Below are positions 8,091 to 62,205 of a stretch of DNA of 64,000 bases, piece after piece. Positions within the stretch are counted from its first letter, which is position 1. Every line of letters starts with the position of its first letter. The position numbers and the translations under genes were made by a program. Source of the DNA: an uncultured Planctomycetales bacterium. GTDB lineage: Bacteria > Planctomycetota > Phycisphaerae > UBA1845 > PWPN01. The stretch lies in the NCBI GenBank assembly GCA_964653435.1, contig CAZZFA010000004.1, positions 22,492 to 86,491 on the forward strand, read 5' to 3'. Below the pieces are notes generated by a model. The model ran no database searches. It was not told where the DNA came from and worked only from the letters and a program-made list of their open reading frames with translations.

Positions 8091-8268
8091 CGGGAGGTGT
8101 GAGCAGGTCAGCATGTACACGATGATTCTCTCGATGTGGTTCATCCTGATGGCGTCTGACCAGCCAGGCATGAGCCGGCATATGGCCACATCGACTGGAT
8201 GGTGCCGGATAACAGCCACCGCGTGTCCATCCAAAGTGCAAGGCTGAAAGAAAGGGAGGACCCAATCG

Positions 8269-10782: not shown

Positions 10783-11377
10783 GCGGGATTCAGCTGGGGC
10801 GGACGAGGTGCTGCAGCGGCTTGTCGACATGCTGCAGCCGGGTCGGATCATGCGTATCATAGATGAGCCGGTCGACAAGGCGGCAGAGGTGTTCGCATGG
10901 CCGACCGAGTCGGCTGCCTCCCGCAACTTTGCACAAGTGCTCGCATCATTTCTGCAACACATATACCGGCACGCCTTCCCCGACGGCGAACAGCTCTCAC
11001 CGTGGCGCGCCCATGATGAAGTCATCGCTTTGCTCCAGGCTGATGCACAAGACCCTATGGCGGGAGGGTACATTGGCGCCGCGCTGGATACCCGGGATGC
11101 CGAAGCGCCGCCTTGGTATGAACTGGGCGCGCGTATCACCGGGGCCATCAAGACGCGTCTGCGTCGGCAATACGTTCAGTGGGTCCTCGCCATGGAGATC
11201 GACCCCCGCGACTGGTCCATGCAGTGTGCCTTGACGGAGATCGTGATCGAGCGGATGCAGCAATACCTGCCCCCTGAGATCGCTGCGGGCCCGCCCGAGC
11301 GATGGGCGAGCCAGCTCAGCGGCCTGCTTGGCATGTACCTGGGCCTGCAGGACGAGGGGGGAGTACGGTTGATCTGA
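10769..11377 (+). CDS. hypothetical protein, distant paralogue family member
   Basis: 202-aa ORF whose ATG overlaps the last codons of the ATPase gene (coupling). It contains ...ERMQQYLPPEIAAGPPERW..., resembling the YGHLLPPEL motif. Confidence 0.65.
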   Translation: MRASERDSAGADEVLQRLVDMLQPGRIMRIIDEPVDKAAEVFAWPTESAASRNFAQVLASFLQHIYRHAFPDGEQLSPWRAHDEVIALLQADAQDPMAGGYIGAALDTRDAEAPPWYELGARITGAIKTRLRRQYVQWVLAMEIDPRDWSMQCALTEIVIERMQQYLPPEIAAGPPERWASQLSGLLGMYLGLQDEGGVRLI

Positions 11378-11456
11378 CGGGTCTGAAACGGAATCTCCAT
11401 TTCTCCCGCTCTCCTGGCTGCAGGCCTGCTGTTCTTGGTGTGCAGCCGGGAGAGCC

Positions 11457-12578: not shown

Positions 12579-13416
12579 GATCCCCACCTGCAGTCCAGAT
12601 CGGGGCCCACAGGCCCTCTCGCCGCATACGGGAATCTTCGGTCGCCCACACGAAGTCCGATGGCGGCGTCTGTCGGATGAGCTGACACAAGCCGGCAATG
12701 CGGGAGACGCCGCCGGCAACAAACAAGACACGGAAACCGATGAACGGCTTGTTGCCGGTCGCGAAACGCTGATAGTCCCCGCTGCGAAACCATGCCTGAT
12801 ACCGCAGGATCTTGGATTGGACATCACGGTTGGGGCCACGGCCGCTGATCCGTGGCTGTGTTCCCATGTCTACCTCCAGGAAGAAAAGGAGCGTCTTGTC
12901 GACGCCCCGATGCCGGATGGCGAAGACGCCATCGGGAACAAGGTCGGCCTGCCCGCTGATCGGCTTGTTCTCCAAGGATTGCGTGTCGGCCGGAACCGGC
13001 CGGTTCGTGCTGATTCGTGACGTCGCGAGATTCAGGGTTTCAAAGCCGCTGAAGTGGCGGGCCAGGAGAGTCAGTTGGGCCCACACCTCGCTTGCCACCT
13101 CGTCGTGTTCGGGGTGCTTCAGCCCGCGGACGGTGAGCTGTTCGGCCGTGATGTCGGCATCAATCAGGCCCAGGGCCTTCAGGCAAGTGACGCCGTTGGC
13201 CGACAGCGACACCAGCTTTTCCGGGCGACCGCTGCCCCGACCGAGTCGGCTGGAGTCGGCCTCGATCAGTCCCTGCTCATGAAGAATCCTGAGTCGGTGT
13301 CGGGTAGCCGGACCGTTCCGCTCACACCGTATCGCCAGTTGTGTCGCTGTCAGCACCCGATGCTCGGCAATCGTCAGGAGCAGCTCATGATCACGTTCCG
13401 AGAGAACGAAGCCCAT
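12409..13416 (-). CDS. replication-relaxation family protein (winged-helix N-terminus)
   Basis: The track ORF starts at GTG 13428, but ATG 13416 follows SD GGTGGAG. The N-terminus MGFVLSERDHELLLTIAEHRVLTATQLA...RHRLRILHEQGLI and the later FFLEVDMGT match my recollection of Pfam Replic_Relax (unverified). Confidence 0.8.
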   Translation of the reverse strand: MGFVLSERDHELLLTIAEHRVLTATQLAIRCERNGPATRHRLRILHEQGLIEADSSRLGRGSGRPEKLVSLSANGVTCLKALGLIDADITAEQLTVRGLKHPEHDEVASEVWAQLTLLARHFSGFETLNLATSRISTNRPVPADTQSLENKPISGQADLVPDGVFAIRHRGVDKTLLFFLEVDMGTQPRISGRGPNRDVQSKILRYQAWFRSGDYQRFATGNKPFIGFRVLFVAGGVSRIAGLCQLIRQTPPSDFVWATEDSRMRREGLWAPIWTAGGDLTQRTKSILGSLAPASCPAPASLASGQPDAEASSQAKPSGIEGAGGAKGSWHRKKA

Positions 13417-13607
13417 CACAGTCTCCACCTTGCGGGCTCGATTGCAGGAACCGAACCGCGCATCATCCTGTACTGCGAGAGGAATCCGATCTGGATTTCA
13501 ATCGAGCAGCCCCGCACCCCTATGAGATGCAAGACAACTCATCGTGAGGCTCGACACTCGCAAACACCTGAAACCAGAAACCCATTTGACCCGCTGGTAT
13601 TGATAGA

Positions 13608-13659
13608 GGCTGCTGAAGCAGCCCGGCTGACCGAGGTGGTACGCAGGACAGTATCCTGC
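13608..13659. promoter_or_regulatory. two short perfect inverted repeats in a divergent intergenic region (candidate ori/oriT or operator)
   Basis: GGCTGCT-GA-AGCAGCC lies at 13608-13623 and GCAGGA-cagta-TCCTGC at 13643-13659. Both lie between the replication-relaxation gene and the 13743 gene. Confidence 0.25.
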
Positions 13660-13742
13660 GATCCATCCGGGAGCCGGGCGATCTTCAAGCATCCTGATCG
13701 TGATTGGGTGATATTCGTGTTCATGCGAGAAGGAGGTTCGAG

Positions 13743-14081
13743 ATGTCTTACTCGTCTCAAAGACCCGTGAAGGAATTCCGCGCCCTGGGCGGAGGCACTG
13801 TTACCGCCTCGGTGTGGCGGAACGAGAGCGAAAAGGATAGCCAGATTCTCGTGAGTTACAGCATCCGCGTCCAGAAGCGGTACCGTGACCGCGACACGGG
13901 AACCTGGCACGACTCGGAGTACTACTTCCCCGAGGATCTCCCGAAGCTGCGGCTCGTCGTCGAGAAGGCCTACGAGTACACCAGGCTGCGTGAACGCGGT
14001 CCTCAGGCGACGGGGCCAGTGGATGCAAGCGGACCCGCGGATGTGGACTTTGAAGCTGGCGCCTCGGCGGAAGGTACCTGA
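13743..14081 (+). CDS. small hypothetical protein (possibly PC4/YdbC-like ssDNA-binding; weak)
   Basis: Internal ATG 13743 of track ORF 13704..14081 follows SD GAAGGAGG. The 112-aa product is MSYSSQRPVKEF...SIRVQKRYRDRDTGTWHDSEYYFPEDL. Confidence 0.7.
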   Translation: MSYSSQRPVKEFRALGGGTVTASVWRNESEKDSQILVSYSIRVQKRYRDRDTGTWHDSEYYFPEDLPKLRLVVEKAYEYTRLRERGPQATGPVDASGPADVDFEAGASAEGT

Positions 14082-14107
14082 CAAAATGATGCGTCGATTG
14101 TGCTCAG

Positions 14108-14140
14108 GAAGCCCGCTGGCTCGCCGCTGGCGGGCTTCTT
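14108..14140 (+). terminator. rho-independent-type hairpin
   Basis: GAAGCCCGC (14108-14116) pairs with GCGGGCTTC (14130-14138), followed by TT. It lies 27 nt after the 14081 stop. Confidence 0.5.
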
Positions 14141-14246
14141 GGTAATCCCAGTCAGAAAGAGGCCACACCATCATCCCCAGAGGTGTCGACCATGTGCTTC
14201 CCGGGGCACAGTTAGGCAAGCAGGGCAACAGCACGTGAGCTAACGG

Positions 14247-14600
14247 ATGAACGAGCGCGCCGAAGAATATGTCTTGCCGACCAAGCTCATCGAGGAGCTG
14301 ATCGAAGCGATACAGGACCTTCGAAGTGCCAGGAACCCGGCCGAGGCGATGAGGCCCCTCAGCATCGATGAGGCGGCCAAGACTCTCCGTTGCCGGCGAA
14401 GCGAAGTAGAGAAGCTGATTGCGAACGGAGCAATGCCCTACATCAAGCGCAATGGCCGACGCTACATCCTGCCGTCAGATATCGCCCAGTGGCTGAAGAA
14501 TGAATCGGAACGACAGCTTCCTCCCAAAGGCAGAAGAAGACCCCGGCACCGTCTGAAACCAGAGGACGTCGATCCGGCCTTACGGGAGTTTTTTGAGTGA
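14247..14600 (+). CDS. excisionase-type helix-turn-helix DNA-binding protein
   Basis: 117-aa ORF. LSIDEAAKTLRCRRSEVEKLIANGAMPYIKRNGRRYILPSDIAQWL is typical of the excisionase/MerR-like HTH_17 class. It is convergent with the integrase and overlaps it by 21 nt. Confidence 0.75.
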   Translation: MNERAEEYVLPTKLIEELIEAIQDLRSARNPAEAMRPLSIDEAAKTLRCRRSEVEKLIANGAMPYIKRNGRRYILPSDIAQWLKNESERQLPPKGRRRPRHRLKPEDVDPALREFFE

Positions 14601-15920
14601 TCGCGTCTTGTGCTTCTTCTTCCAGGCGTTCAGCTCTTTGGAGTCGAGCGTCTTGTTGATCCACTCCACGACTTCCTTCGTTTCTGGGGTCAGAGGCTTG
14701 AGGTACTCATCCGCAGCGTCGGACCTGCCGTGGCCAAGGAAGGTCCTCAGCTGGGCGATACCGGTACCGGGGCGAGCCGCGTACGCAGTCGCACCGAGGT
14801 GTCGCCAGACGTAGAAGCCCTCTTTCCACTGCTCAAGGTCTGCTCGAATCCGGAGCTTTCGCCAGGCTTGGGCCACATCGTCGGAACGCTTGAACGGGGT
14901 TTTCGCGGGTTTTCGCGTACTGGTGCCGTTCAGCATCTCGTCTATGGTCTTGGTCATCACCCAAACCAGGGGCCTGCCCGTTCTGGTGACGAAGAGCAAC
15001 TCATCCGCCTGTCTCGGTGTGCTCTTCAGGTACTCCCTAAGGTGAGCCCACACCTGCGGCCGCATCACTCCGAAACGGGGAAAACCCGTCTTGCCTCGCC
15101 GCATGTCGTAACTGTCCGCGTCGAAGTGGACCAACCGGGCACGGGCCAGATCGTCGTTCCCAAAACCCAAGCCGAGGCCCATCCAGATCCACAGACGCTC
15201 GCGGACCGTGGCGGCCTCGAGGAGTGTTTGAATCATCTTGACGGTCGGAATCTGCCGGGTCTTCTTCGTCTCGGTGCCGCCGAACTTCCTGACGTCCTCT
15301 TGACTGAACGGTAGCCGGATACTGAAGGGGGCTCGCCGTGCAAAGCGCACGATCTCCCAGAAGCGCTGGCGGTGTTTGTTGACCTGCGAGGCGCCCAACC
15401 GTGTGACGAGGGAGAGCATCATGGACTCGTAGTCGGTTGCACCCAGGACTTGATCGAAGGGCGTAGTGCCCAGCTTGGTGCCGTACGTCTCCTTGCACCA
15501 CCGCAGGATGCGGACGACTTGCCTACGGTTGTCGTCGAACACCCGCAGGCTGATGGTACCCTTCGCTCGTCTCGCCTCCTCCAGCCGCACCCGTCGCCTT
15601 TCGTGCTGCAGGTAGGCCTCTGCTATCGCCGGCAGACTATCGTCCAGATCCCCCTTGCCGACTTCGCTGTCCCGTGTAACAATAGCGGCGGCTTGGTCGT
15701 AGTTCTCGACGACCCACCGGTGGTACGCGAGTTCGGACTCGGTTCGGTCCGTCGAGAATCGCTGTCGCCTGGGCTTGCCGGCGGGATCGCGGTATGATGT
15801 GTAGTAGCGGCCCGTGCCGGGTTCAGGCTTGTCGGAGAGCCTGGGGATGCGTCGTTTTCGCTGGGGCTTTTGCTCGGTCATGACGGACATGATACAATCA
15901 ACCCTGGCGAGTGGCAACAT
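14580..15920 (-). CDS. int: tyrosine-type site-specific recombinase/integrase
   Basis: 446-aa ORF. C-terminal catalytic-region motifs are MRRGKTGFPR, WRHLGATAYA and FLGHGRSDAADEYL. The start could also be ATG 15890 or 15881. Confidence 0.9.
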   Translation of the reverse strand: MLPLARVDCIMSVMTEQKPQRKRRIPRLSDKPEPGTGRYYTSYRDPAGKPRRQRFSTDRTESELAYHRWVVENYDQAAAIVTRDSEVGKGDLDDSLPAIAEAYLQHERRRVRLEEARRAKGTISLRVFDDNRRQVVRILRWCKETYGTKLGTTPFDQVLGATDYESMMLSLVTRLGASQVNKHRQRFWEIVRFARRAPFSIRLPFSQEDVRKFGGTETKKTRQIPTVKMIQTLLEAATVRERLWIWMGLGLGFGNDDLARARLVHFDADSYDMRRGKTGFPRFGVMRPQVWAHLREYLKSTPRQADELLFVTRTGRPLVWVMTKTIDEMLNGTSTRKPAKTPFKRSDDVAQAWRKLRIRADLEQWKEGFYVWRHLGATAYAARPGTGIAQLRTFLGHGRSDAADEYLKPLTPETKEVVEWINKTLDSKELNAWKKKHKTRSLKKLP

Positions 15921-16007
15921 AAGGGCAGAAAATGGCCGGTATTGGACGGTTTATGGCAACAAAATGCTGAACGACAAAGAATGCAAAGCCTTTAAAATAA
16001 AAGACTT

Positions 16008-16079
<72 letters not shown>

Positions 16080-16397
16080 TTTGACGTAACGCCCGCCGCC
16101 CCCGCTGGTTTCGGGGACCTGCCTTCGAGGCGGAGCAGCCGTAACCGAGGCTCAAATCCGAGTAGTACTACTCGCGCCACGGACGACGGCGGATGCTTGT
16201 CGAGGAACCATCCCGCGTTCCGAAACTTCGCACGCGCGAAACCACCGGCCAAGGCTACGTCATGCCCAAGGGCCAAGCGATCTACCTCGGTTGCGCCGGC
16301 TTGCCCGAAACCGATCGCCGCTGCTGCCGGGTGATCCCTGCACTGTTATCGCCTGGATTCTTGTCGGCCGGCGCCGCATTCCGGGCCAGGGGCGGTA

Positions 16398-42456: not shown

Positions 42457-43269
42457 TTACCTTTCCGATGCCGCTGCCGCGCCGGGCACAGGCTGATCGG
42501 CGCGCGCCACCGTCCGCATGCTCAGGGCGGGCAGAAGCTTTGGCGGCGGTACGCCGTGGAACGCCCGCAGCGCGGCGAGGCCCATCCCTCCGACCAGGAT
42601 GCCGATGACCAGGCACGCATACCCGGCCTTGCGCATGGCCGTCGTGCCGGCGATGATGCCCCAACTGATCAGGAACGTCCAGAACCCGTTGGCCATGTGG
42701 TAGCAGACGGCGACGATGCCGATCGCGTACCACGGGGCGATCCAGGCAGACGCCTGGACCGCTTTTGCGCAGGAGAAGGCGGCCCACGGCGGGTCGGGAT
42801 TGAATGCGTTGCCGCCGATGGCCTTGAACGGTTCACCCAGCCAGTTCATCTGGAGCACGTGAAAAACGATGAACACCAGCGCGACCAGGCCGGATATGCG
42901 TTGCAGCGTGTACCGGATGTTGCCGCCGTAGGGGTAGCGCCAGACGTTGCTCCGGCTCCACCACCAGATGCGGACGCCCAGGACGGCGTGGTAGGTGATG
43001 GGCACGAAGATGAAGGCAAACTCGGCGGTGGTGAGAAAGGGCCTGATGGAGTGGATCAGATCCACGTTTCGCTGGAAGGTTTCCGGTCCGGCAAGGATGG
43101 AGGCGTTGACGGCCAGATGGAAGACGACGAACAAGCCGATCGGGACGACGCCGCTGAGCGAGTGAAGCTTGGTCAGGAGGAAGTGGTGGCGAGCGCCGAT
43201 CACCGGTACATTGGCTTGTGCGATCACCACGTTACCCCCGTGGGCGCCGCGCAGGCGCAGAATGTTCAC
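42457..43269 (-). CDS. sdhC: succinate dehydrogenase cytochrome b subunit (b558 family)
   Basis: 270 aa with a GTG start. LLTKLHSLSGVVPIGLFVVFHLAVNASIL is typical of the family, with about 5 TM helices. It lies upstream of sdhA-sdhB. Confidence 0.85.
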   Translation of the reverse strand: MNILRLRGAHGGNVVIAQANVPVIGARHHFLLTKLHSLSGVVPIGLFVVFHLAVNASILAGPETFQRNVDLIHSIRPFLTTAEFAFIFVPITYHAVLGVRIWWWSRSNVWRYPYGGNIRYTLQRISGLVALVFIVFHVLQMNWLGEPFKAIGGNAFNPDPPWAAFSCAKAVQASAWIAPWYAIGIVAVCYHMANGFWTFLISWGIIAGTTAMRKAGYACLVIGILVGGMGLAALRAFHGVPPPKLLPALSMRTVARADQPVPGAAAASER

Positions 43270-43668
43270 GGCCGACGCTCGCCAATTCTAGCGCCCGGAC
43301 CTGCCCCGTCAAGCCGCCGCCCCGGGCGATCGGGACCGGGCGGGGTGGTCGCTACGAAGCGAGGATTCGGCGGCCCGCCGCCGTCCGCCGAGCCGGGGGG
43401 GAACAGTCGGGTCAGGCCGGCGGTCCACGGCGCGCCGTCTCGCCGAACCCAAATCACCTCTCCAAGGTGCGCAATCGTGACGCCCGCTCCGCTCGGCGCG
43501 ACGGGGTTTGCGGGGCGCTTTGCGCACAAGCGGATCGGCATGCAATGGCGCATCCCGCCTGGCTGATCGGTGTGCGAGACGGCAACGGGCATCACGATGA
43601 CGAAAACGTTGACCTCATTCGTCTGATCTTCGCCCGTGCCGCGCGCCGAGTATGCACCTCGAGGGGGG

Positions 43669-43704
43669 CGCGAGCGGCGCGATTCGAACGCGCGCCCTGC
43701 GGTT
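43669..43704 (-). repeat. copy of the 3' half of tRNA-Arg(CCT) (T arm + acceptor 3' strand): putative distal att site
   Basis: CGCGAGCGGCGCGATTCGAACGCGCGCCCTGCGGTT matches 59793-59828 at 35/36 positions (mismatch at 43695). The sequence upstream of it cannot form an acceptor, D arm or anticodon stem, so it is a fragment and not a gene. Confidence 0.8.
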
Positions 43705-44605
43705 CGGGAGGCGGTCGGGCGCGTTATCCGGTCGAGGTACGGCAAACCGTTCATAAGCAATCAGGCGTCCTCGGTCACGGTCGTCCGTCGCTCTTTGCGA
43801 CCGCCGGGAGCGCGGCTTCGACCTCTCTGACTGGCGACGACGCGTTCGGCAGGCGACCGTCCGCATCCCCGCGCACATGATTTGCGGGGACAGGTCATCG
43901 GGCCCGCAGGAGCGGCCGGGTTCGGGGCCCGCGCAGCGATCAACGATGCAGGTGGCTTGCCTTTCTGTCGCGAAAGTGACCTTCTTTGCGAGCGCCCCCG
44001 ATGCTTCAAGTACTTGCTGTGGAGATGGTTAGCGCCGCTTTCGGTTCGAGAGTTTCGTTCGTTTCCATTCCCGTAGGGACGACTGAGCCTTCGCGGCGCT
44101 GCTCGCCGCATGCGAAACTGTCTTCCCGAGAACGGCATCAGCGCATTCTTGACGCGACAAGTCGGGTCGTGCGGTTGAGCGTCAGACGAGCGTAATCCGC
44201 TATTTATCATGACGTTATGCCGACAACCTTGCCGGAGACCAGCCAAGAGCTACACCGGAAGATGCGCGGGATTTCCTTTGCATTTCCGACAAAGGCGGGG
44301 TATGCTTGTTGCAGGATGGATGGGATCAAGAAGATCCGCGTAAACGTCGGCAACGGAAGCGACACGTGAACACATGTCGTACCGACTTGCCGGGGTGGGT
44401 CAGAAGCCGTCGACAATTCGGAAGGCAATTCTCGTTTACCCGGGGATTGAGGCTTCCCTGCCTGGTTGTGATTCGGCGGCCCGCCGCAACGAACGATGCA
44501 GGGCGGGATCCTGCACCGCCAAGTGTCGGCTGATCCCGCAAGGGCGGTCTTGATACAGCGCGGCGCGATCGCATCGCGCCATCGGCTCACGGGGGCTTCA
44601 ATACC

Positions 44606-47600
44606 ATGGTCACAATGTCGAGAATGCGGTACCGCGTGTTGGTTGTGGGCGGGTGCGTGTTGGCTGTCGTGTGTGCGCATCGCCCCGAAACGGCCCTCGC
44701 CCAGCCCGTGGCAAACCCCGGTGGGCCATATACCGCCACAGCCGCAACCCGCGCCGAGGGCGGATGGACATTCTCATTCGACGGCAGCGCCTCCACCGGC
44801 GACCCGCCCCTGGTCCAGTGGGAGTGGGACTTCGGCACGGACACGTGCGAGGGCCAGTGGCTCAATACGTTCAAGTGGGTTTCTCAGAACGCCTACAACG
44901 ACGGCGCCATCATCCTGAGCGGCGCCGGCTGGGGAAACAGCTTTGTCTTCAGCCGCGAGCCCGTTCTGCGTCAGGAAGCGGCTACGCTCACGTTGGGGCC
45001 ATCCGACGCCGCCGCGGGCCGCAGCGCCGACTTCGATTCGGATGGGGACGTGGATACTGCCGATTTCCTGGTGTTCCAGGGCTGTTTCAGCGGTTCGAAT
45101 CGGAGCCCGTCGGCGGCAGGATGTGAAATCGCGGATCTGGACGGCGACGCGGATGTGGACACCGCGGACTTCGGAATCTTTCAGGACGCATTCAACGGTC
45201 CCAACCGGCCGCCCAAGAACGCAAAGCCCGCGGACTCTTCGCCGGCGCCGGCCGACTCCCCGGGCAATCCGGTGCCCGGTGTGTTTCAGGCCCGGGTGAC
45301 GCCGGACGGCGGGCACGCGATGTGGGGGTTCAAGAACACGAGCACCAACTACAGCTACACGCAGATGCCGTATGCGCTGTATTTCGAGCGCGGCAACCTG
45401 CACATCTACGAAGACGGGAGCCACCGCGGCCAGTTCGCCACGTATGCGCCCGGACAGACGTATGACGTCCGCATCGAGCTGAAGACGGCCGGCGGCGCAC
45501 GATACCTCTGGAAGCTCCCGTCGGATGCTGACTGGACGCTGTTGCGCGATACGACGTACGGCTCGGGGACGAGCCTTCTGCGCGGCGTGACGGTCGAGTC
45601 CGGAACGTTCCGCATGGATGACGTGCGCGAGGTCTTCTACGGCAAGACGCTGACCCACAAGGTCTACCAGGGCGGGCCGGCGATGCTGACCGTGCAGGAC
45701 TCGACGGGGCAGTCACAGACGGCGACGTTCGACATCGCCGTCGAGCCTGCGGATATCGTCGCGAACGCCGGCGGTCCGTACACGCAAACCGAGGGCGACC
45801 GCGGGGCCGACGGCTGGACCTTCAGCTTCGACGGCTCAGCCAGCACGAGCGGCCTCGAGATCATCCAATACGAGTGGGATTTCGGGCCGGATACGTTCGA
45901 CGGCGACGGACCCGATGCGGGCCAGTACTTCATCGCCAGGGCCTACCAGACCGCCGGCCAGGTCCGCATTTCCGGCAGCGGATGGGGCAATGCTTATCTG
46001 TTCGCGCGTCGCATCGTCACCCGATCCGGCGCCCCGATCCTGCAGGCCCGGGTGACGCCGGACGGCGGGCAGGCGATGTGGGGGTTCAAGAACACGAGCA
46101 CCAACTACAGCTACACGCAGATGCCGTACGCGCTGTACTTCGATCGCGGCAACCTGCGCATCTATGAGGACGGCAGCCACCGCGGCCAGGTCGGCTCGTA
46201 CACCCCCGGCCAGGCGTATGACGTGCGGATCCGTTTGAAGAATACGTCGGGTGCGATGTATTTCATCAAGCCGGCCGATGCCGCCGACTGGACACTGCTG
46301 TACGACTCCTACTACGGCAGCCAATCGGAGTTGCTCGCCGGCGCGACCGTCGAATCGGGCACGTTCGTGATCGACGAACAGACGCGCCGCTCCTACGGGC
46401 CGACGCCGCAGTGCACCGTTGCCGGACCGATGCCCGTGACGCTGACGGTGACCGACCTCCTGGGGCGCACGGCGTCGCAACAGTTTTCGCTTCGCATCAC
46501 CGGTCAGCCGCCCGTCGCGGATGCCGGCGGCCCGTATAGCGCGAGCCTCGGCGAGACGGTTACCCTGGATGGCACGCGATCCACCGACGACTACGGCATC
46601 GTCCGCTACGAATGGGACCTGGGCACGCAGACGTTCGACGGCAGCGAGCTGAACGGGGAGGCGTGGTTCGCGAGCCGGGCGACCCAGGACAATCGGCTTC
46701 TCGTGACCGGCGCCGGCAACTGGGGCGGCGCGTATGCCTTCTCGAAACAGATCGTGTCGCGGGCGAAGGATGTTGCGCTTGAATGTCGTGTGCTGCCGTC
46801 GGGCAATCACGCGATGTACGGCTTCAAGAACCTCTCGGGTGACTACAGCTACACCCAGATGCCCTACGGCCTGTACTTCGCGGGAGGTACCCTCCAGGTA
46901 TGCGAGGACGGCAGCGGCCGCGGGAGCGTAGGAGGCTACAGCAAGACCACGCCGTACGACGTCCGTATCGTCCTGAAGGAGACCGCCGGCGCCACCTACT
47001 GGATCCGCCCGACCGGCACGGAGGTATGGACGTGCGTCTACGATTCCAACTACGGCACCGGCACGCGGTTTCTGCGCGGCGTGACCGTGCACAGCGGCGT
47101 TTTCGAGACGGACGATTTTCGCGACGTCTTCGGCGGCAGCCAGGTGCCCTACATTGTCACCCGCGACACTACCGCGCGCCTGACCGTCTACGACGTGCAG
47201 CGGCAGGCAACAACCGCCTCGGTTCCCGTGCAGCTCATTCCGATGGTCGTGTGCGTGCCCTGGGACTACGACAAGATCAGCGGGCGCGAGATCCCGCACA
47301 ACGCATGGGACGGCCTGGCGACCCGCCTGAAGGCCGTCGCATACACCGACACCTCGGCAAGCAACCTCTCCGTCACGTGGGACTTCGGCGACGGGACGGC
47401 CGCGGAGACGGGCGGCGTCTCCGACAAACGAATCATCGAGACGATGCATAGCTATCGCGGCGACCCCGGTGCGCTCTACACCGCGACGGTCACCGTGCAT
47501 GACCCCGTCCATGGTGACCTGAGCGATACGTACCCCGTGCAGATCCACGCCAGGGACCTGACGATCGAGGTGAACGTGGCGATCGACGAGGGTCTCTGGT

Positions 47601-50600
47601 TCCTCCACAAGCGGAACCTCGGCGGGTGGTGGAACTCGAACCAGGGATACTGGGTCAGTCCGACGGCATCCTGCGTCCACGCGCTCGAGATCAACGGCCA
47701 TACCCTGAATCGCTCGCGATCGATCGATCCCCTGGTCGAGGATGTGGCCGGCGGGCTCCGCAGCATCCTCAGCAACCTGTACGCCTCGAGCATCGCCGCG
47801 CAGCCCTACGGCGACCCGGACTCCAACGGGAACGGCCTCGGCATCTTCGTCAATTCGGGCCGGCGGATCTACGAGGGCGGCATGGTCATGGATGCCCTGG
47901 CGGCCAGTGGCGTGCCCGACCGGGTCGCTGACGTCGGCGGCAGCGGCATCCTGGGCCGCACCTTCCGCGACATTGCGCAGGACATGATGGACGCCTACGC
48001 CTGGGGTCAGGTCGATTCCGGCGCGGCGCGCGGCGGATGGCGCTACGAGTGGAACAGCGGCGCCGACAACTCCGCCTCACAATGGGCCGCCATCGGTTTC
48101 CTCGGCATCAAGGCCGCCTTCGGTCTCGATGTCGCCGCATGGGTGAAACAGGAGAACAACGTCTGGCTCACCTACAGTTACAACGGCACCGGGTTCGGCT
48201 ACGACGGCCCGGGCAACGGCCAGGCAACCACGCCGTCCGGCATGGTCCAGCTCGCTTGTGACGGTTATGAGATCAGCGACCCGCGATGGCAGACCGCCGA
48301 GGCATACATCGCCAACAACTGGGATTGGTTCCGCAACAACACGAACATCTATGCCTGGTACGCGTTTACAAAGGCGATGCGGGTGGCCCTGCCCGCAGCG
48401 GTGGTCAATCTGAGGCCCACGGGAATGGACTGGTATGCCCACCCGACCAAAGGGATCGCCCGGCTTCTCCTGAACTTCCAGCGTTCGGACGGAGGCTGGC
48501 CCCCCGACATGGGCTGGAACCTCGGCTCGCCGTTCAACACGGCCTGGAGCGTGGTCATCCTCACGCCGACGCTGTTCACGCGCCCCCCGGTCGCCGTGGC
48601 CGGCCAGGACATCGTCTGGGCCTTCGACCGGCCGCTCGAGTTCGACGGCTCGAAGTCGTATCACACCGATCCCGCGCGCGTGCTGGTGCTGTATGAGTGG
48701 GACTTCGACGGCGACGGCACTTATGACTACGCCGGCGCAGATCCTCGGACGACGCACACCTATTCCTTCGACCCCAACATTCAGTACCCCGTCATCTATC
48801 AGGCCAAGCTGCGCGTGACCGACGACGTCGGTCAGGCGGCCACCGACACCCGCGACGTCACCATCGCCGAACCGCCGCACGCGCCGTTCGCCAGGGCCGG
48901 CGGGCCGTACACGGTGAGCGCCGGCGTCCCGTTCCATCCGGACGGCAGCGGCTCCTATGACATCGACCCCACCGACTACATCACACGCCAGGAGTGGGAT
49001 TTCAACGGGGCCAACGGCTACAACTTCGACCAGCCGGATGCCGCCGTCGATTGCACCGCCGCCGGCTGCCCGCAGGTCACCTGGGTCTTCACCGCGCCGG
49101 GGACGTACAACATCGGCCTGCGCGTATGGGACAACGGCGTCCTGCACCCGCAGAACCGGAAACTTGCCTCGGTTCCCGACTACACCACGGTCACCGTCGT
49201 GCAGAACCAGCCGCCCACGGCCAATCCGGGTGGGCCTTACACTGTGGACGAGTGCAAGTCCGTGAGGCTCGACGGTTCCGGCTCGACGGATCCCAACGGC
49301 GACGCGATTACGTACGCATGGGACCTCGACGGCGACGGCGAGTTCGACGACTCGACCGAGCCCGCGCCGATGTTCACCCGGAACCAGAACGGCACATACA
49401 CCGTCAGCCTGATCGTCTCCGACGGCGCGACGCAGAGCCCGCCGGCAACCACGCAGGTCCTGGTCCGCGACACCGCCCCGACGGTCTCGCTTACGGGCCC
49501 GAGCCGACTCGGAATCAGCCAGGAAGGCACTTTTACCGCGACGGTCGGTTCGCCCTGTGACGCGGTCGTGGGCATCCAATGGGATTGGGATTACGACGGC
49601 ATCACGTTCCAGGCGTCCGGCGACGAGGGAACGACGCAGAAGCACGGCTATGCCGCTCAGGGCAGGTACCGCGTTGCCGTTCGCGTCACCGACAGCGATG
49701 GCTCCGCCGCGATTGCCGTGCTCGATGTGACGGTCGAGGCGCCGGTCGCCCCTCGCGTGCCCGCCGGCGTGCGGGTCAAGGTGGTCGTCGGCCAGCGTGA
49801 ATACGACAACGCGCGGAAGGTCCACCGCGGCCAGTTTTCGCTCGTCAGCGTCTACGATCTCCCGATCACGGGGCCGGTCGCGCTCGCCTTCGACAACATC
49901 AAGCCCGACACGGTGAAGCTGCTCAACAGCCAAGGCACGGTTCGTGACCCGGCGACCGGCCGCGATCTCCCGTACGTCGACTTCAGCGACCTGCTCGCCG
50001 GCGGCAAGCTCGCCCCGGGCGCGACCCTCGGGCCCAAGTGGGTCGAATTCGAGGATCCCGGCCGGGTGGCGTTCACCTTTGACGCAATGGCCTACATCTT
50101 CAACGCCCCGCCGAAGTTCACGTCCACGCCGGTGCTGACCGCCGACGAAGGCCAACGCTACCGCTATGAGGCCAAGGCCGTGGACGACGACGGCGACCCG
50201 ATCACGTTCGCCCTGCGCGACACGAACGGAACCCCTCCCCCGGAGGGCATGACCGTCCATCCGCTGGCCGGCATCGTTGATTGGGTTCCGTCGCAGACGG
50301 CCGCGGGGGCCCATGATGTCACGCTCGTCGCGATCGACGGCTTCGCCGGCGGCGAGGGCACGCAAACGTTCCGGATCACCGTCGGCGCCGTCGACGCACC
50401 GCCTGTGATCACCTCCGCGCCGCCCACTACGGCGACGGTCAACGTGGCGTACCAGTATCAGGTGGTCGCGTACGACCCGGACGGCGGGGCCGTGACATTC
50501 ACGCTGCCGACCGCCCCGGCCGGGATGACCATCGACGCGGCCGGCGGCATGATCCAGTGGGCCGCGCCGGTTGTCGGTTCGCACACCGTAAAGGTCGTCG

Positions 50601-58759: not shown

Positions 58760-59449
58760 GTGGAAAGAAGCGGTTGGCTCCTCGGGCTGTGGATCGGCCT
58801 CTGCGCGGTTCCTGCTGCGTACGCTCTGCCCACCAACGCCGACTTCTCGGCCGGTCTTTCCGGCTGGACGACAAGTGGAACGGTCATCGACGGCGGCGGC
58901 TACGCCGTGCTGCTCGAAGCGACCATGCAGGATTCCAGCTCGCTGTACCAGGACTTCGTCATCGACGCCGGGGCGATTCGCCTCTCGTTCGACTACGCAT
59001 TCCTGACGGACGGCTGGTTCAATCAACAGGCCCTGCCCGATGCGTTTACTGCCCGCCTGCTCGATCCGGTTACGCTCATGCCGATTCTCGCGACGACCGG
59101 CCGGAGCGACTACTTCTACCACGACGCCCGGGGGGAATCCGACAGCCTCGTCTTCGCTCCGATCGCCGTCACCCGCACGCCCGTCAGCGATCCGCTCCGC
59201 CCCGATTGGTATACCATCAGCCTCGACGTCTCCTCACTGACGGCGGGCACCAGCGTCCGGCTCATGTTCGAGCTGCTCGGCGGTGACAACGGTCAGCAGA
59301 CGCTGGCTGCCGTCGACGGCGTGAGCCTCGGCTTCCGCGAAGAACCGATCATTCCGGAGCCGTTGACCGTCGGCCTGGTCGCCGCGGCCCTGGCCGCCCT
59401 GTCGTACCGCTACGGCCGTCGCGAAACGGCCTCTCCAAGTCAGACCTGA
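58760..59449 (+). CDS. secreted PEP-CTERM sorting-domain protein
   Basis: GTG 58760 lies 6 nt after SD GGAGG (the track ORF starts at 58676). The signal peptide is VERSGWLLGLWIGLCAVPAAYA. The C-terminus IIPEPLTVGLVAAALAALSYRYGRRE is a PEP motif + TM + basic tail. Confidence 0.8.
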   Translation: MERSGWLLGLWIGLCAVPAAYALPTNADFSAGLSGWTTSGTVIDGGGYAVLLEATMQDSSSLYQDFVIDAGAIRLSFDYAFLTDGWFNQQALPDAFTARLLDPVTLMPILATTGRSDYFYHDARGESDSLVFAPIAVTRTPVSDPLRPDWYTISLDVSSLTAGTSVRLMFELLGGDNGQQTLAAVDGVSLGFREEPIIPEPLTVGLVAAALAALSYRYGRRETASPSQT

Positions 59450-59792
59450 AGCGGCGGCAGTTGATCCGTCCTGCCCTCGGCCGATCGCGGCGCCGGCGTC
59501 CCGTCGCACGTCCGGTCGCTCAGTCCCCGGCCTGCATTGTGGTTCCGCACGCCGCCCCATTCCCTGAAGAAGAAGGGCGAACGCTTGCTTTCGAATCAGC
59601 GATGCCATTTGCCAGTGTCATGAGGGACTACTTGTAAGGGTATCGAAGCTTTCGGAACAGAACGCGATCTCGGCATGTGCGAACCTCCTCGGCGCACGCA
59701 CGGTCAGTGACCGCGATGCAAAGCGCTTCCGGCCGCACTGCCGACCGCCGGCGGGTCCTCGTACCAAACGAGATGGGCGAGACGTATTGTAA

Positions 59793-59866
59793 CGCGAGCG
59801 GCGCGATTCGAACGCGCGACCTGCGGTTTAGGAAACCGCTGCTCTATCCTGCTGAGCTACGCCCGC
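59793..59866 (-). tRNA. tRNA-Arg (anticodon CCT)
   Basis: Hand-folded on the minus strand: acceptor GCGGGCG/CGCTCGC (one G-U), D arm GCTC-AGCAGGATA-GAGC, anticodon stem GCGGT/ACCGC with loop TTCCTAA, T arm GCGCG-TTCGAAT-CGCGC, discriminator G. It is 74 nt. Confidence 0.95.
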
Positions 59867-60058
59867 ATGAGCATGTGCCCGTTATCCGGGGGACGGGCCG
59901 ATCCAGCCCCCATATTGCACTCCACACGGGGCTGCGGCCGAAGGCCGTGCTACGGCACTGTGAACGGGCGAGACTGTCCGACCGAGAACGGCACTCGGCG
60001 TCCGCGTCGTCCCGCCTGTACGTTCGTAAGCCTATCCGAAATCAGTCGTTCCGACAAG

Positions 60059-60718
60059 TCATCGGCGACGCCGGACGGTTCCGCTCGGCCTCGCCGCGCG
60101 ATCGATCTCGGCGCGGCGGGCGCAACGACGGGCGCGGCGGGCCGGGGTTGGCTTGGGCGTCATCGCCTGCTCGATCAGGTCGCACAGGATGTGGTAGGCA
60201 ACCTGGTGAATCTCCTGGATGCGGTCGCTCGATTCATGCGGGACGCTGAGGCAGTGTGCGCAGAGCGGCTTGAGGGCCCCGCCGTCGCTTCCGGTGAAGC
60301 CGACCACAATCGCGCCGAGCCTGCGGGCGACCGCGGCAGCGGCGAGGATATTGGCGGAGCGGCCCGACGTGGAGAAGAGCCAGACGACGTCGCCCCGGCG
60401 CACATGCGCCTCGATCTGACGCGCGAAGACCCGCTCGTAGCCGTAGTCGTTCGCGACGGCGGTCAGGGCCGAGGTGTCCGTCGTCAGAGCGACGGCCGGC
60501 AATGCCGCCCGCTCCCGCCGAAGACGCCCGACGAGTTCGGCCGCCACGTGCTGCGCGTCGGCTGCGCTGCCGCCGTTGCCGGCCAGGTAGAGCCGCTTCC
60601 CGGCGCGGAAGGCCCGGGAGGTCCGCCGGGCGATCCGGACGAGCAGGCCCTGCTGCTGCGCGAGGGCGGCGGCGCAACGTTCGTGATCGGCGAGAGCGGA
60701 CTGGATCGTCGGGTTCAC
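60059..60718 (-). CDS. gmhA: D-sedoheptulose-7-phosphate isomerase (SIS domain)
   Basis: GTG 60718 gives VNPTIQSALADHERC...LYLAGNGGSAADAQHVAAEL...FSTSGRSANIL. The GTG overlaps the hldE TGA (GTGA at 60715-60718). The upstream extension of the track ORF to 61321 is an out-of-frame shadow of hldE. Confidence 0.85.
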   Translation of the reverse strand: MNPTIQSALADHERCAAALAQQQGLLVRIARRTSRAFRAGKRLYLAGNGGSAADAQHVAAELVGRLRRERAALPAVALTTDTSALTAVANDYGYERVFARQIEAHVRRGDVVWLFSTSGRSANILAAAAVARRLGAIVVGFTGSDGGALKPLCAHCLSVPHESSDRIQEIHQVAYHILCDLIEQAMTPKPTPARRARRCARRAEIDRAARPSGTVRRRR

Positions 60719-62205
60719 TGGGGGGGGCTTCCCTTTCGGATGCGTTCGAGCAGGCCGGTCGTGCTGTAGCCCTCGAGGAGATCGAGCAGCACGACCCGGC
60801 CGCCGTGCGATTCCACGAACTCCCGCCCGACGACGCCCTTGTCGGACCAGTCGCAGCCCTTCACGAGAACGTCGGGGCGGATCTTGCGGATAATCTGTTC
60901 GGGAGTGGGTTCGTCGAAGATGACGACGTAATCGACGTACTGAAGCGCCGAGAGCATCTCCGCGCGTTCCTGCTGGTTGCAGATGGGACGATCGGGGCCC
61001 TTGGCCAGCGCGCGGACCGAGGCGTCGCTGTTGAGGCCGACGACGACGACAGTTCCGAGCTGGCGGCAGCGGGCGAGGAAGCGGATGTGCCCGGGGTGCA
61101 GCAGGTCGAAGCAGCCGTTGGTGAAGACGATCGAGTCGCCGCGCTGCCGGCGCAGAGCGAGTTCGGAGACGAGTTCGTCGGCGCTTCGCTGCTTTCCCGC
61201 GCCGTCGCCTTCGGCGAGGCGCAGGTCGGCGATCACCTCCTCGCGGGTGATGGGAACGCAACCGAACTTCTCGACCTCGAGCCCGCCCGCCACGTTGGCC
61301 AGGCGAGCGGCCTCGACCCACGAAGCGCCCGCGGCGACGGCGGCGGCGAGCATGGCGAGGACGGCGTCGCCGGCACCGGTGTTGTCGTAGACCGACCGCG
61401 CCCGGGTGGGCACATGCACGGGCTGCTCGCCGCGAAGGCGGAGCAGCGAGCCTTCGCGGTCAAGCGTGACGAGCAGGGCCTCGATGTCGAGGCCGTCGGC
61501 GAAACGGGCGGCGGCGGCGCGGATCGTCTCGAAGCGGTCGTCATCGAGGCCGGCGGCGAGGCAGAACTCGCTGCGGTTGGGTGTGAGCGCGGTAGCCCCG
61601 CGGTACTTGCCGTAATCCGGGATTCGTGCCGGATCGACGAGGACGGGCTTGGCGTGTTCGCCGGCGAGGCGGATGAGCTGCCGGCAGAGGGCCTCGCTCA
61701 CGACGCCCTTGTCGTAGTCCTCGATGCAGACGACGTCGACGGCGGGGACGAACCGCCCGATGATTTCGAGTAACCGCGCTTCGTCGTCCGGGGCGAGGGG
61801 CTCGGACGATTCGTCGTCGAGGCGGAGCAACTGCTGGCGATGGCGATGCTGGGCGAGGCCCACGAAGCGCGTCTTGGTGGTGGTGGGGCGGTCCATGACG
61901 GCCAGGACGCCCCGCGTGCCGATCTCCATGTCGTCGAGCATGGCGCGGATACGGTGTCCTTCGTCGTCCAGACCCACCACGCCGCCGCAGGTGACCTTGA
62001 GGCCCAGCGTCACGAGCGAGGCGGCCACGCTTCCCGTGCCGCCGACGCGCTCCTCGCGGTGTCGCTTCGTGAGCACCGGGACGGGGGCCTCCGGACTGAT
62101 GCGGTCCGCGTCGCCGTAGATGTAGCGGTCCAGGATCAGATCGCCGACGAGCAGCACGCGCTGCTTGCGGAACGACTCGACGATTTCGACCAGGCGGCCG
62201 GCCAA
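60715..62205 (-). CDS. hldE: bifunctional D-beta-D-heptose 7-phosphate kinase / D-beta-D-heptose 1-phosphate adenylyltransferase
   Basis: 496 aa with a TTG start. The N-terminus is MAGRLVEIVESFRKQRVLLVGDLILDRYIYGDADRISPEAPVPVL. The C-terminal cytidylyltransferase region is VFTNGCFDLLHPGHIRFL. Confidence 0.9.
   Translation of the reverse strand: MAGRLVEIVESFRKQRVLLVGDLILDRYIYGDADRISPEAPVPVLTKRHREERVGGTGSVAASLVTLGLKVTCGGVVGLDDEGHRIRAMLDDMEIGTRGVLAVMDRPTTTKTRFVGLAQHRHRQQLLRLDDESSEPLAPDDEARLLEIIGRFVPAVDVVCIEDYDKGVVSEALCRQLIRLAGEHAKPVLVDPARIPDYGKYRGATALTPNRSEFCLAAGLDDDRFETIRAAAARFADGLDIEALLVTLDREGSLLRLRGEQPVHVPTRARSVYDNTGAGDAVLAMLAAAVAAGASWVEAARLANVAGGLEVEKFGCVPITREEVIADLRLAEGDGAGKQRSADELVSELALRRQRGDSIVFTNGCFDLLHPGHIRFLARCRQLGTVVVVGLNSDASVRALAKGPDRPICNQQERAEMLSALQYVDYVVIFDEPTPEQIIRKIRPDVLVKGCDWSDKGVVGREFVESHGGRVVLLDLLEGYSTTGLLERIRKGSPPQ

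What the first reader, a model, noticed from the sequence alone, without database searches (positions are those of the whole stretch)
43669..59866. 36-nt direct repeat of the tRNA-Arg(CCT) 3' half brackets a 16.2-kb integrase-less island whose cargo is one 14-kb gene
43669-43704 (CGCGAGCGGCGCGATTCGAACGCGCGCCCTGCGGTT) matches 59793-59828 at 35/36 positions. The latter is the discriminator, acceptor 3' strand, T arm and 3' anticodon-stem strand of the intact tRNA-Arg gene. Both copies have the same orientation, and the intact tRNA has its 3' end facing the enclosed segment. That is the textbook attL/attR geometry of a tRNA-integrated island. The fragment cannot fold into a complete tRNA. Yet the segment holds no integrase, only a 900-nt non-coding leader, the 4669-aa Rhs gene and a PEP-CTERM gene. 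The giant gene has core-like GC (41/60 in a sample line). This suggests either an old, decayed integration or a giant toxin/adhesin cassette mobilised in trans, for example by an integrase such as the one at 14580.
Basis: partly seen in the sequence, partly recalled or inferred. Interest (0 to 1): 0.75.

Follow-up and report, generated by a model that had tools for sequence, protein, structure and literature searches.

The report
Integrase-less tRNA-Arg island scar around giant gene
A half-copy of a tRNA-Arg gene sits 16 kb from the intact gene and brackets a giant Rhs surface/toxin gene in a Phycisphaerae (planctomycete) genome; it is most likely the immobile scar of an old integration event, an ordinary kind of relic rather than an active mobile cassette.

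Summary
Positions 43669-43704 repeat 59793-59828 at 35/36, in direct orientation. The repeat runs from the discriminator to the last anticodon-loop base of an intact tRNA-Arg(CCT) at 59792-59867 (-). The 16.1 kb between them holds no recombinase. It holds a 4669-aa secreted Ig-array/Rhs protein and a PEP-CTERM-like gene.

The geometry matches an anticodon-loop-type attL/attR pair. A sister species ("B", dS about 0.3) lacks both the half-tRNA and the giant gene. Its homology to the window stops within about 8-35 nt of the fragment on one side and exactly at the tRNA 3' end on the other. However, B's two flanks are not adjacent, so no empty site was found.

A closer strain ("A2", dS about 0.18) has sdhC, a decayed fragment (29/36), the giant gene and the PEP-CTERM-like gene in the same place. 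Its right neighbour is tRNA-Met, not tRNA-Arg. Island genes and flanking core genes show the same dS, and the giant gene's codon usage matches the core (r=0.99).

Best reading: one integration into tRNA-Arg before the A1/A2 split, later loss of the mobility genes, vertical inheritance since. Mobilisation in trans by the integrase at 14580 has no support. Verdict: a degenerate island scar of modest interest.

The parts
43634..43668 (.). Junction spacer between the sdhC-upstream block shared with species B and the half-tRNA. It ends in a G-run that resembles B's tRNA-Arg trailer.
   Evidence: BLAST homology to L010 ends at 43633; residual alignment reaches about 43661. L003 6412-6453 matches 43663-43704 at 39/42. 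Trailer similarity is only p=0.066.
43669..43704 (-). Displaced 3' half of tRNA-Arg(CCT), discriminator to A38. An attR-type scar, not a tRNA.
   Evidence: 35/36 to 59793-59828. Not called by ARAGORN or Rfam. Present but decayed (29/36) at the same place in strain A2.
43705..44143 (.). Inner non-coding stretch, indel-rich and unconstrained.
   Evidence: A2 has 161 nt in place of these about 436 nt and the identity is low. No ORF with a family hit. No plasmid match.
44144..44605 (+). Conserved upstream region of the giant gene, presumably promoter and 5' UTR.
   Evidence: 80-92% identity to A2, contiguous with the coding region.
44606..58615 (+). Giant gene, 4669 aa. Signal peptide, dockerin-like repeats (aa about 140-205), three 252-aa repeats, PKD/Big_9/He_PIG/cadherin-like Ig arrays, DUF6531, 17 RHS repeats, DPINNLDPSGH core end at aa 4448-4458, and a 211-aa C-terminal domain beginning with a hydrophobic, TM-like stretch.
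   Evidence: dN/dS 0.16-0.21 against A2. The C-terminal domain has only 2 distant homologues in 1.84e9 representatives, one of them the C-terminus of another Ig/Rhs giant.
58676..59449 (+). Secreted PEP-CTERM-like protein, 257 aa.
   Evidence: Signal peptide and C-terminal PEP + TM + basic motif seen in the translation. No HMM hit. dN/dS 0.23 against A2.
59450..59498 (.). Last stretch shared with A2. A GC palindrome lies at 59486-59503.
   Evidence: Homology of L015 to the window ends at 59498. Palindrome found.
59499..59791 (.). A1-specific non-coding spacer abutting the tRNA 3' end. Inferred to be the residual tRNA-proximal end of the integrated element, where an integrase gene would normally lie.
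   Evidence: No similarity to A2 or to B. Independent assemblies confirm it to 59742. No ORF family hits.
59792..59867 (-). Intact tRNA-Arg(CCT), the attL-type junction.
   Evidence: ARAGORN. Rfam 65.9 bits. 82 nt are 100% identical in species B.
42457..43269 (-). sdhC, the left core flank, divergent from the giant gene. A sigma-70-like promoter lies at 43312-43285.
   Evidence: Pfam Sdh_cyt. Promoter scan. Orthologues.
60059..62205 (-). Right core flank: SIS/GmhA-like gene (60059-60700) and HldE-like gene (60715-62205).
   Evidence: Pfam. Syntenic with species B at 86% nt identity.

Best explanation
The 36-mer at 43669 is the displaced 3' half of the tRNA-Arg(CCT) gene. It was left when a tyrosine-integrase element with an anticodon-loop-type att site integrated into that gene. 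The integration happened on the short branch leading to the window's lineage: after the split from sister species B and before the split of strains A1 (the window) and A2. The element supplied the new 3' half now present in the intact gene. Its recombination and transfer genes have since been lost; they were probably next to the tRNA, where only 293 nt of strain-specific non-coding DNA remain. What survives is a fixed, vertically inherited, selectively maintained gene pair: a giant secreted Ig-array/Rhs-shell protein with a rare C-terminal domain, and a PEP-CTERM-like protein.

Shown directly: the repeat and its limits, the absence of an integrase, lineage specificity, co-inheritance with the flank, and purifying selection. 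Inferred: that an integrase made the repeat, that the giant gene was the element's cargo, and where the lost integrase lay.
For: The repeat is 35/36 with 0 expected by chance. Its limits are the discriminator and anticodon-loop position 37/38, and the 3' fragment lies downstream of the tRNA gene in the same orientation. These are the criteria Islander uses, and anticodon-centred att sites make up 2083 of its 3919 islands (PMC4383910).

Species B (L003=L017, L010) lacks both the fragment and the giant gene. Its homology ends at 43633-43661 and at 59791. In 5.8e9 proteins, the only orthologue of the giant N-terminus is A2's.

A2 carries the fragment at the same spot, decayed to 29/36, which equals neutral divergence (7/36 against dS 0.16-0.21). 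Relative-rate counts give ((A1,A2),B), with an A-stem of about 0.05 substitutions per site.

The 36-mer is not a dispersed repeat. The public metagenome scan gave 2 hits, both B's intact tRNA, and viral contigs gave none.
Against: There is no integrase or remnant. Composition and codon usage cannot be told apart from the core (GC3 0.87; RSCU r=0.988). Any donor must therefore have been compositionally identical, or the gene is older than the scar.

No empty site was found. In B, sdhC and tRNA-Arg lie on different contigs with other neighbours. In more distant relatives neither flank is conserved. At least one extra rearrangement must be assumed.

In A2 the right end abuts tRNA-Met. The shared module ends at 59498, 293 nt short of the tRNA, so the right-hand att junction is confirmed only in A1.
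Confidence: 0.55

Rival explanations
1. The half-tRNA is a rearrangement scar and no integrative element was involved. It would be a by-product of an inversion, translocation or partial duplication with a breakpoint in or beside the tRNA-Arg gene, in a lineage whose gene order is heavily reshuffled. The giant gene would be an ordinary chromosomal gene that happens to lie between the copies.
For: Synteny blocks among relatives at 82-88% nt identity are only operon-sized, and every relative has a different neighbour upstream of sdhC. A2 has tRNA-Met where A1 has tRNA-Arg. There is no integrase and the composition is native. B's two flanks are unlinked.
Against: A random breakpoint would rarely give a copy that starts exactly at the discriminator, ends in the anticodon loop, and lies in direct orientation on the 3' side of the intact gene. 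Identity does not extend into the trailers, as a segmental duplication would predict (A1 fragment flank versus A1 tRNA flank, p=0.77).
Confidence: 0.22
2. It is a still-mobilisable, CIME-like cassette: attL and attR are intact, there are no recombination genes of its own, and a cognate tRNA-Arg-specific integrase encoded elsewhere moves it in cis or in trans.
For: A1 keeps 35/36 identity between the two sites. The CIME category is defined as elements that have lost integration and transfer genes but retain attL and attR (PMC6323972). The A1 fragment has changed less than A2's (1 against 7 differences) although the two lineages evolve at equal rates, but this is weak (binomial about 0.07).
Against: Island genes and flanking core genes have the same dS between A1 and A2 (0.17-0.21 against 0.16-0.17), and the module sits at the same place next to sdhC in both. 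That means vertical inheritance with no movement. In A2 the fragment decays neutrally and its partner tRNA-Arg is not adjacent. The only integrase in the window lies in a separate low-GC element beside tRNA-Gly, whose sequence is unrelated to the 36-mer. No matching att was found in viral contigs.
Confidence: 0.07
3. The half-tRNA is retained for a function, for example as a tRNA-like regulatory or processing element or a boundary element between the divergent sdhC and giant-gene promoters, rather than being a neutral scar.
For: It lies in the 1.3-kb divergent intergenic region. The A1 copy is nearly unchanged. The T-arm hairpin is intact in the sequence.
Against: In A2 it has diverged at the neutral rate (7/36), including within the T arm. 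It lies about 360 nt upstream of the sdhC promoter-like site and 900 nt upstream of the giant gene. Adjacent DNA is full of indels. There is no Rfam match.
Confidence: 0.04
4. The repeat is due to chance or an assembly artefact.
For: The window derives from a metagenome-type assembly. The last 50 nt before the tRNA (59743-59791) are seen only in the window.
Against: 0 of 100 shuffles give a second copy. An independent assembly, the A2 contig L016, spans the left junction. The right side is confirmed to 59742 by three further assemblies. The tRNA-SIS-HldE side is confirmed by species B.
Confidence: 0.02

Closest known systems
tRNA-gene-integrated genomic islands as defined by Islander (Hudson, Lau & Williams 2015, PMC4383910; Williams 2002 sublocation classes)
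   Same: An intact tRNA gene plus a displaced 3' fragment, in direct orientation on the 3' side. The identity block runs from the anticodon loop to the tRNA 3' end (the 'A' type). The 16-kb size is typical. The segment is absent from a sister species.
   Different: There is no tyrosine integrase, which Islander requires. Composition and codon usage are host-like. There are only two genes. No contiguous empty site exists in any relative. In the sister strain the other end abuts a different tRNA.
CIMEs, cis-mobilisable elements (ICEberg 2.0, PMC6323972)
   Same: Flanked by attL- and attR-like repeats, and lacking both integration and transfer genes.
   Different: No cognate ICE or integrase is known. 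There is evidence of vertical inheritance and of neutral decay of one att site in the sister strain. Mobilisation is untested.
Rhs/YD-repeat polymorphic toxin proteins
   Same: DUF6531, 17 RHS repeats, a core ending in a DPxxxxDPxGH-type motif, and a short, rare, modular C-terminal domain that is also found at the C-terminus of another Ig/Rhs giant.
   Different: The roughly 3100-aa N-terminus carries a signal peptide, dockerin-like repeats and Ig-like arrays. No T6SS, PAAR or VgrG context is visible. The downstream gene is a secreted PEP-CTERM-like protein rather than a small cytoplasmic immunity protein. The C-terminal domain begins with a long hydrophobic, TM-like stretch. Toxin activity is unproven.
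Integrase-less 'anchored' islands beside tRNA genes in proteobacteria (for example some Salmonella and E. coli pathogenicity islands; recalled from my own knowledge, not tested here)
   Same: Strain-specific cargo sits next to the 3' end of a tRNA gene without a functional integrase.
   Different: Those islands usually keep an anomalous composition and often lack a clean direct repeat. Here the repeat is clean and the composition is native.

Membership tests
tDNA-integrated genomic island (Islander criteria) | Intact tRNA/tmRNA gene at one end | tested here: met
   tRNA-Arg(CCT) at 59792-59867 (-): ARAGORN and Rfam 65.9 bits.
tDNA-integrated genomic island (Islander criteria) | Displaced fragment of the same tDNA, in the same orientation, with the 3' fragment downstream of the gene | tested here: met
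   43669-43704 matches at 35/36, in direct orientation, on the 3' side.
tDNA-integrated genomic island (Islander criteria) | Identity block ends at a known crossover sublocation (anticodon loop or T-loop/junction) | tested here: met
   Identity stops between loop positions 37 and 38. Loop bases 33-35 still match (and direct reading of the sequence).
tDNA-integrated genomic island (Islander criteria) | Tyrosine integrase gene inside the island | tested here: not met
   No Phage_integrase or other recombinase hit in the two ORFs or in the ten longest (>=74 aa) stop-to-stop six-frame segments of 43272-44698 and 59401-59898 at E<=10. tblastn with the window's integrase found nothing.
tDNA-integrated genomic island (Islander criteria) | Relatives carry the uninterrupted site (empty attB) with the same two flanks adjacent | tested here: inconclusive
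   The segment is absent in species B, with breakpoints at the fragment and at the tRNA 3' end, but B's flanks lie on different contigs with other neighbours. The outgroups are uninformative.
CIME (cis-mobilisable element) | attL and attR retained; integration and transfer genes lost | tested here: met
   35/36 repeat in A1 and no mobility genes. In A2 the left site is decayed to 29/36 and the partner tRNA is not adjacent.
CIME (cis-mobilisable element) | A cognate ICE or integrase uses the same att site | tested here: inconclusive
   The only integrase in the 64-kb window lies beside tRNA-Gly. No att match in viral contigs. The rest of the genome is not available.
CIME (cis-mobilisable element) | Excision or mobilisation occurs | not testable with these tools
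   No reads are available. Equal dS of island and flank genes between A1 and A2 argues for no movement since their split.
Rhs/YD polymorphic toxin | RHS/YD repeat shell | tested here: met
   PF05593 at E=3e-144 with 17 stretches, plus DUF6531.
Rhs/YD polymorphic toxin | Rhs-associated core with a C-terminal aspartyl autoprotease motif | tested here: inconclusive
   TIGR03696 scores only 21.2 bits against a cut-off of 32.5, matching the last 20 profile positions. The motif DPINNLDPSGH is present at aa 4448-4458.
Rhs/YD polymorphic toxin | Variable C-terminal toxin domain with a cognate immunity gene immediately downstream | tested here: inconclusive
   The 211-aa C-terminal domain is modular: it is homologous to the C-terminus of another Rhs giant at 36%. 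It matches no family or PDB entry and the model is poor (pLDDT 35). The downstream gene is a secreted PEP-CTERM-like protein and does not look like an immunity protein.
PEP-CTERM sorting-signal protein | C-terminal PEP motif, TM helix and basic cluster recognised by the family model | tested here: inconclusive
   The motif ...IIPEPLTVGLVAAALAALSYRYGRRE... is visible in the translation. There is no Pfam or NCBIfam hit.

The most novel reading that the evidence does not exclude
The giant Rhs gene pair is a recombinase-less cassette that relocates between tRNA genes. It sits at tRNA-Arg in this strain and next to tRNA-Met in the sister strain. It would use retained half-tRNA att sites and an integrase supplied by another element. 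That would make giant surface/toxin genes of planctomycetes a mobile, exchangeable cargo class, which would explain their patchy distribution despite native codon usage.
Probability: 0.07. Interest if true: 0.6.

Novelty: new member of a known kind. Interest (0 to 1): 0.3.

Why it matters
If the reading is right, it dates the arrival of a lineage-specific giant Rhs gene in an uncultured Phycisphaerae lineage to a short branch. It also shows that such genes can enter through ordinary tRNA-targeted integration from compositionally similar donors and then become fixed once the mobility genes are lost. That helps in interpreting 'giant genes' and strain-variable regions in planctomycete MAGs, and it cautions against calling islands on repeats alone. 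It does not reveal a new mechanism.

Tried and rejected
- **SdhC scan of genome contigs:** found only a 39%-identical Tepidisphaerales MAG, which was useless for synteny.
- **Exact look-ups of window proteins:** gave only short contigs that stop before the junctions.
- **Outgroups via the SIS protein (L019, L020-23):** they have no tRNA-Arg beside SIS, so the rearrangements could not be polarised.
- **Integrase remnants:** Pfam at E<=10 on the ten longest (>=74 aa) six-frame segments of both non-coding ends gave nothing. tblastn with the window's integrase also gave nothing.
- **att and leader searches elsewhere:** the viral-contig scan for the att core gave 0 hits. The phage search returned only generic tRNA similarity. 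The plasmid search with the leader gave no match.
- **Fragment as a whole decayed tRNA:** in-register D-arm-like similarity (13/17) beyond the 36-mer is marginal (p=0.03-0.07), so I do not rely on it.
- **Trailer comparisons:** the A1 fragment flank against B's tRNA trailer gives p=0.066. The A2 fragment flank against the A1 tRNA trailer gives p=0.01 among six tests. These are hints only.
- **Gene conversion keeping the A1 fragment fresh:** the 1:7 asymmetry is weak (about 0.07), and the central mismatch argues against conversion.
- **Shared arm-type repeats between the two island ends:** none found.
- **Structure predictions:** single-sequence models of the C-terminal domain and the PEP-CTERM-like protein were unusable (pLDDT 35 and 46), so no fold search was run.
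- **L024's divergent first 203 nt:** an assembly chimera, not an alternative Rhs C-terminus.
- **CRISPR-DR20 Rfam hit inside the giant gene:** 25 bits against a gathering score of 42, so chance.

Full report
**Observation**

The window holds exactly two copies of the 36-mer, at 43669-43704 and 59793-59828. They differ at one base, and no second copy appears in 100 dinucleotide shuffles. The second copy lies inside a bona fide tRNA-Arg(CCT) gene on the minus strand: ARAGORN places it at 59792-59867 and Rfam tRNA scores 65.9 bits. Neither tool calls anything at 43669, even at E<=1.

In tRNA sense, the repeat spans A38 of the anticodon loop, the 3' anticodon-stem strand, the variable loop, the T arm, the 3' acceptor strand and the discriminator. 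Identity ends at loop position 37/38 on the inner side and exactly at the tRNA 3' end on the outer side. The copies are in direct orientation, and the fragment lies on the 3' side of the intact gene.

Between the two copies are:
- a 901-nt non-coding stretch
- a 4669-aa ORF with 17 RHS repeats, DUF6531 and arrays of PKD, Big_9, He_PIG and cadherin-like domains
- a 257-aa secreted protein whose C-terminus reads PEP + TM helix + RYGRRE but hits no PEP-CTERM model
- 342 nt of non-coding DNA

No recombinase is detectable in the ORFs or in the ten longest six-frame segments of the non-coding ends.

**Composition**

The giant gene has GC3 of 0.87, against 0.79-0.90 for core genes. Its relative synonymous codon usage correlates at 0.988 with 16 core genes. 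By contrast, the clearly foreign element at 1-16000 has GC 0.60, GC3 0.65-0.84 and r=0.889. So the 16-kb segment is not compositionally foreign.

**Relatives**

The lineage is Phycisphaerae (names). Three comparators were recovered.

- **Strain A2.** This is MAG GCA_049699575.1, contigs L016 and L015. It is 90-92% identical in nucleotides and dS is 0.16-0.21.
- **Species B.** This is ENA sample ERZ27247220. L010 covers the sdh side, and L017 covers the tRNA-Arg side; L017 is 100% identical to the JGI contig L003. dS to the window is 0.22-0.39, excluding one short gene (SIS, 0.79).
- **More distant relatives.** These are L008/9, L019 and L020-23.

Lineage-specific substitution counts give ((A1,A2),B). 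The A1 and A2 rates are equal, at 25 against 23 changes in 321 intergenic columns.

**What the relatives show**

Species B has neither the half-tRNA nor any orthologue of the giant gene. In a search of 5.8e9 proteins, the only orthologue of the first 900 aa is A2's, at 92%; the next hit is 43% over a fraction of the query.

On the sdhC side, B's homology to the window ends at 43633 by BLAST and about 43661 by alignment. That is 8-35 nt outside the fragment. On the other side it ends at 59791, exactly the tRNA 3' end, and the tRNA itself is 100% identical over 82 nt. Relative to B, the novel DNA is therefore bounded precisely by the two repeat copies.

However, B's two flanks are not adjacent. 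sdhC is preceded by epimerase, SpoIIE and B12-HTH genes in the middle of a 223-kb contig. tRNA-Arg is followed by hypothetical, PAD-like and TspO genes and a convergent tRNA-Pro on another contig. No relative shows an empty sdhC-tRNA-Arg junction. Gene order in this group is conserved only over operon-sized blocks, so this absence carries little weight either way.

Strain A2 has, in the same order, sdhC, the half-tRNA, a shortened leader, the giant gene and the PEP-CTERM-like gene. The giant gene is 91% identical in amino acids over the first 784 residues and 94% over the last 414. Its fragment reads CGTGAGCGGCGCGGTTCGAATGCGCATCGTGCGATT, which is 29/36 to both the window's fragment and the tRNA. 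Seven differences in 36 nt (0.19 raw) equal the synonymous divergence of the neighbouring genes, so the fragment evolves neutrally.

To the right, homology to the window stops at 59498, which is 49 nt past the PEP-CTERM-like stop codon and sits at a GC palindrome. A2 then has 445 unrelated nucleotides, followed by a tRNA-Met(CAT) in the same orientation that tRNA-Arg has in the window. Dockerin-like and HD genes come next. No tRNA-Met fragment is seen at A2's left end.

dS between A1 and A2 is the same for island genes (giant N-terminus 0.21, C-terminus 0.19, PEP-CTERM-like 0.17) and for flanking genes (sdhC 0.16, sdhA 0.17). dN/dS is 0.16-0.23. The segment has therefore been inherited vertically, with its left flank, since the A1/A2 split, and both genes are under purifying selection.

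**Interpretation**

The size, limits, side and orientation of the repeat are those produced by tyrosine-integrase integration into a tRNA gene. [quoted passage not shown] In that database, 3760 of 3919 islands have 3' fragments and 2083 have anticodon-centred att sites (PMC4383910). A random rearrangement breakpoint would rarely reproduce these limits, and the similarity does not extend into the trailers as a segmental duplication would predict.

Taken with the lineage-specific presence bounded by the two copies, the best account is a single integration on the A-stem. That branch is about 0.05 substitutions per site, which fits the one position (27 of the 36-mer) that differs from the tRNA in both A1 (C) and A2 (T).

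The mobility module is gone. The 293 nt next to the tRNA (59499-59791) are specific to A1, match nothing, and lie where an integrase gene normally sits. That the shared module ends at 59498 in both strains fits two scenarios:
- independent loss or rearrangement of that module after the split, or
- loss before the split, followed by an inversion in A2 that exchanged the tRNA-proximal flank with a tRNA-Met locus.

Both are inferences. Because codon usage is native and the branch is short, the donor must have been a compositionally identical relative, or the giant gene was not the original cargo. I give the integration-scar reading 0.55. Within it, the chance that the giant gene was the cargo is about even.

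[quoted passage not shown] Four points count against it:
- vertical co-inheritance with the flank
- neutral decay of the A2 fragment
- the absence of any cognate att in viral contigs
- ORF 14580-15920, a divergent integrase (PHROG 216 only), belongs to a separate low-GC element with an HTH_17 excisionase-like gene, an AEP primase and a TrwB-like gene, lying beside tRNA-Gly, whose sequence is unrelated to the 36-mer

The only hint in its favour is that A1's fragment changed less than A2's, at 1 against 7 differences (p about 0.07). I give this reading 0.07.

**The cargo**

The giant protein has a signal peptide and two dockerin-like DxDxDGDVDxADF repeats, which it shares with many Phycisphaerae secreted proteins. 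It then has three 252-aa repeats, Ig-like arrays, DUF6531 and the RHS shell. The core ends in DPINNLDPSGH at aa 4448-4458. The 211-aa C-terminal domain starts with a long hydrophobic, TM-like stretch.

That domain has only two distant homologues among 1.84e9 representatives. One is the C-terminus of another Ig/DUF6531/RHS protein of 2623 aa. This is the modular pattern of polymorphic-toxin C-termini, but toxicity is unproven, and the downstream gene does not look like an immunity gene. Structure predictions were uninformative.

**Verdict**

Its 'old, decayed integration' reading is the best supported but is not proven, because no empty site exists among available relatives. The 'mobilised in trans' reading is unsupported. 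This is a new example of a known kind, an integrase-less tRNA-linked island relic, and is of modest interest.

Noticed in passing
window 1-16079: A clearly foreign, lower-GC element (GC 0.60 against 0.67; GC3 0.65-0.84). It carries a divergent tyrosine integrase (14580-15920, PHROG 216 only), an HTH_17 excisionase-like gene (14247-14600), an AEP-TOTE primase (11457-12578) and a TrwB-like protein (8269-10782). It lies on the 5' side of tRNA-Gly(CCC) at 16008-16079. No tRNA-Gly repeat occurs within the window, so its other end is off-window.
   Followed up: partly
window 16080-16177; L003 2261-2358: A roughly 100-nt element directly downstream of tRNA-Gly in the window is about 80% identical to the sequence directly downstream of tRNA-Pro(GGG) in species B. 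It contains a perfect 16-nt palindrome, CGAGTAGTACTACTCG, is single-copy in the window and has no Rfam family. In B it lies only 4 kb from tRNA-Arg, against 43.6 kb in the window, so everything between it and tRNA-Arg differs between the two species.
   Followed up: partly
L015 2131-2648 (strain A2): In the sister strain, the giant-gene/PEP-CTERM-like module is followed by 445 unrelated nt and then a tRNA-Met(CAT), in the position and orientation that tRNA-Arg has in the window. The unrelated stretch includes a tandem CCCTTCTTGTTTT motif and a hairpin just 3' of the tRNA.
   Followed up: partly
window 45023-45220 (giant protein aa about 140-205): Two dockerin-like calcium-binding repeats ending in NGPNRPP are shared at 60-70% identity with dozens of otherwise unrelated Phycisphaerae secreted proteins. 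One of these is the dockerin-like gene beside tRNA-Met in A2.
   Followed up: partly
window 57083-57256 and 57974-58096: Strongly hydrophobic, TM-like stretches lie inside the Rhs shell region (aa 4160-4217) and at the start of the C-terminal domain (aa 4457-4497). This is unusual for an encapsulated Rhs toxin.
   Followed up: no
L010 12935-13201: Species B has an 88-aa PDDEXK_3 gene inserted between sdhA and sdhB. It is absent from the window, where sdhA and sdhB are 6 nt apart.
   Followed up: no
L014 9384-9752: In another B-like strain, the epimerase upstream of sdhC is truncated to 122 aa, against 499 aa in L010. The region upstream of sdhC is therefore prone to deletion and rearrangement in several lineages.
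   Followed up: no
L024 1-203: A low-coverage ENA contig fuses a PDH-E1-beta-like N-terminus to the Rhs C-terminal domain through a shared RYGGIFDD-coding k-mer. This is an assembly chimera, not an alternative toxin tip.
   Followed up: yes
window 43705-43750: Just inside the 36-mer there is an in-register, D-arm-like similarity to the tRNA 5' half (TATCCGGTCGAGGTACG against TATCCTGCTGAGCTACG, 13/17; p=0.03-0.07). It may mean the element's attP region once derived from a whole tRNA gene.
   Followed up: partly
window 59743-59757: A GC-rich near-palindrome, GACCGCCGGCGGGTC, lies 35 nt downstream of the tRNA-Arg 3' end. Two independent assemblies (L024, L025) both end immediately before it, at 59742.
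   Followed up: no
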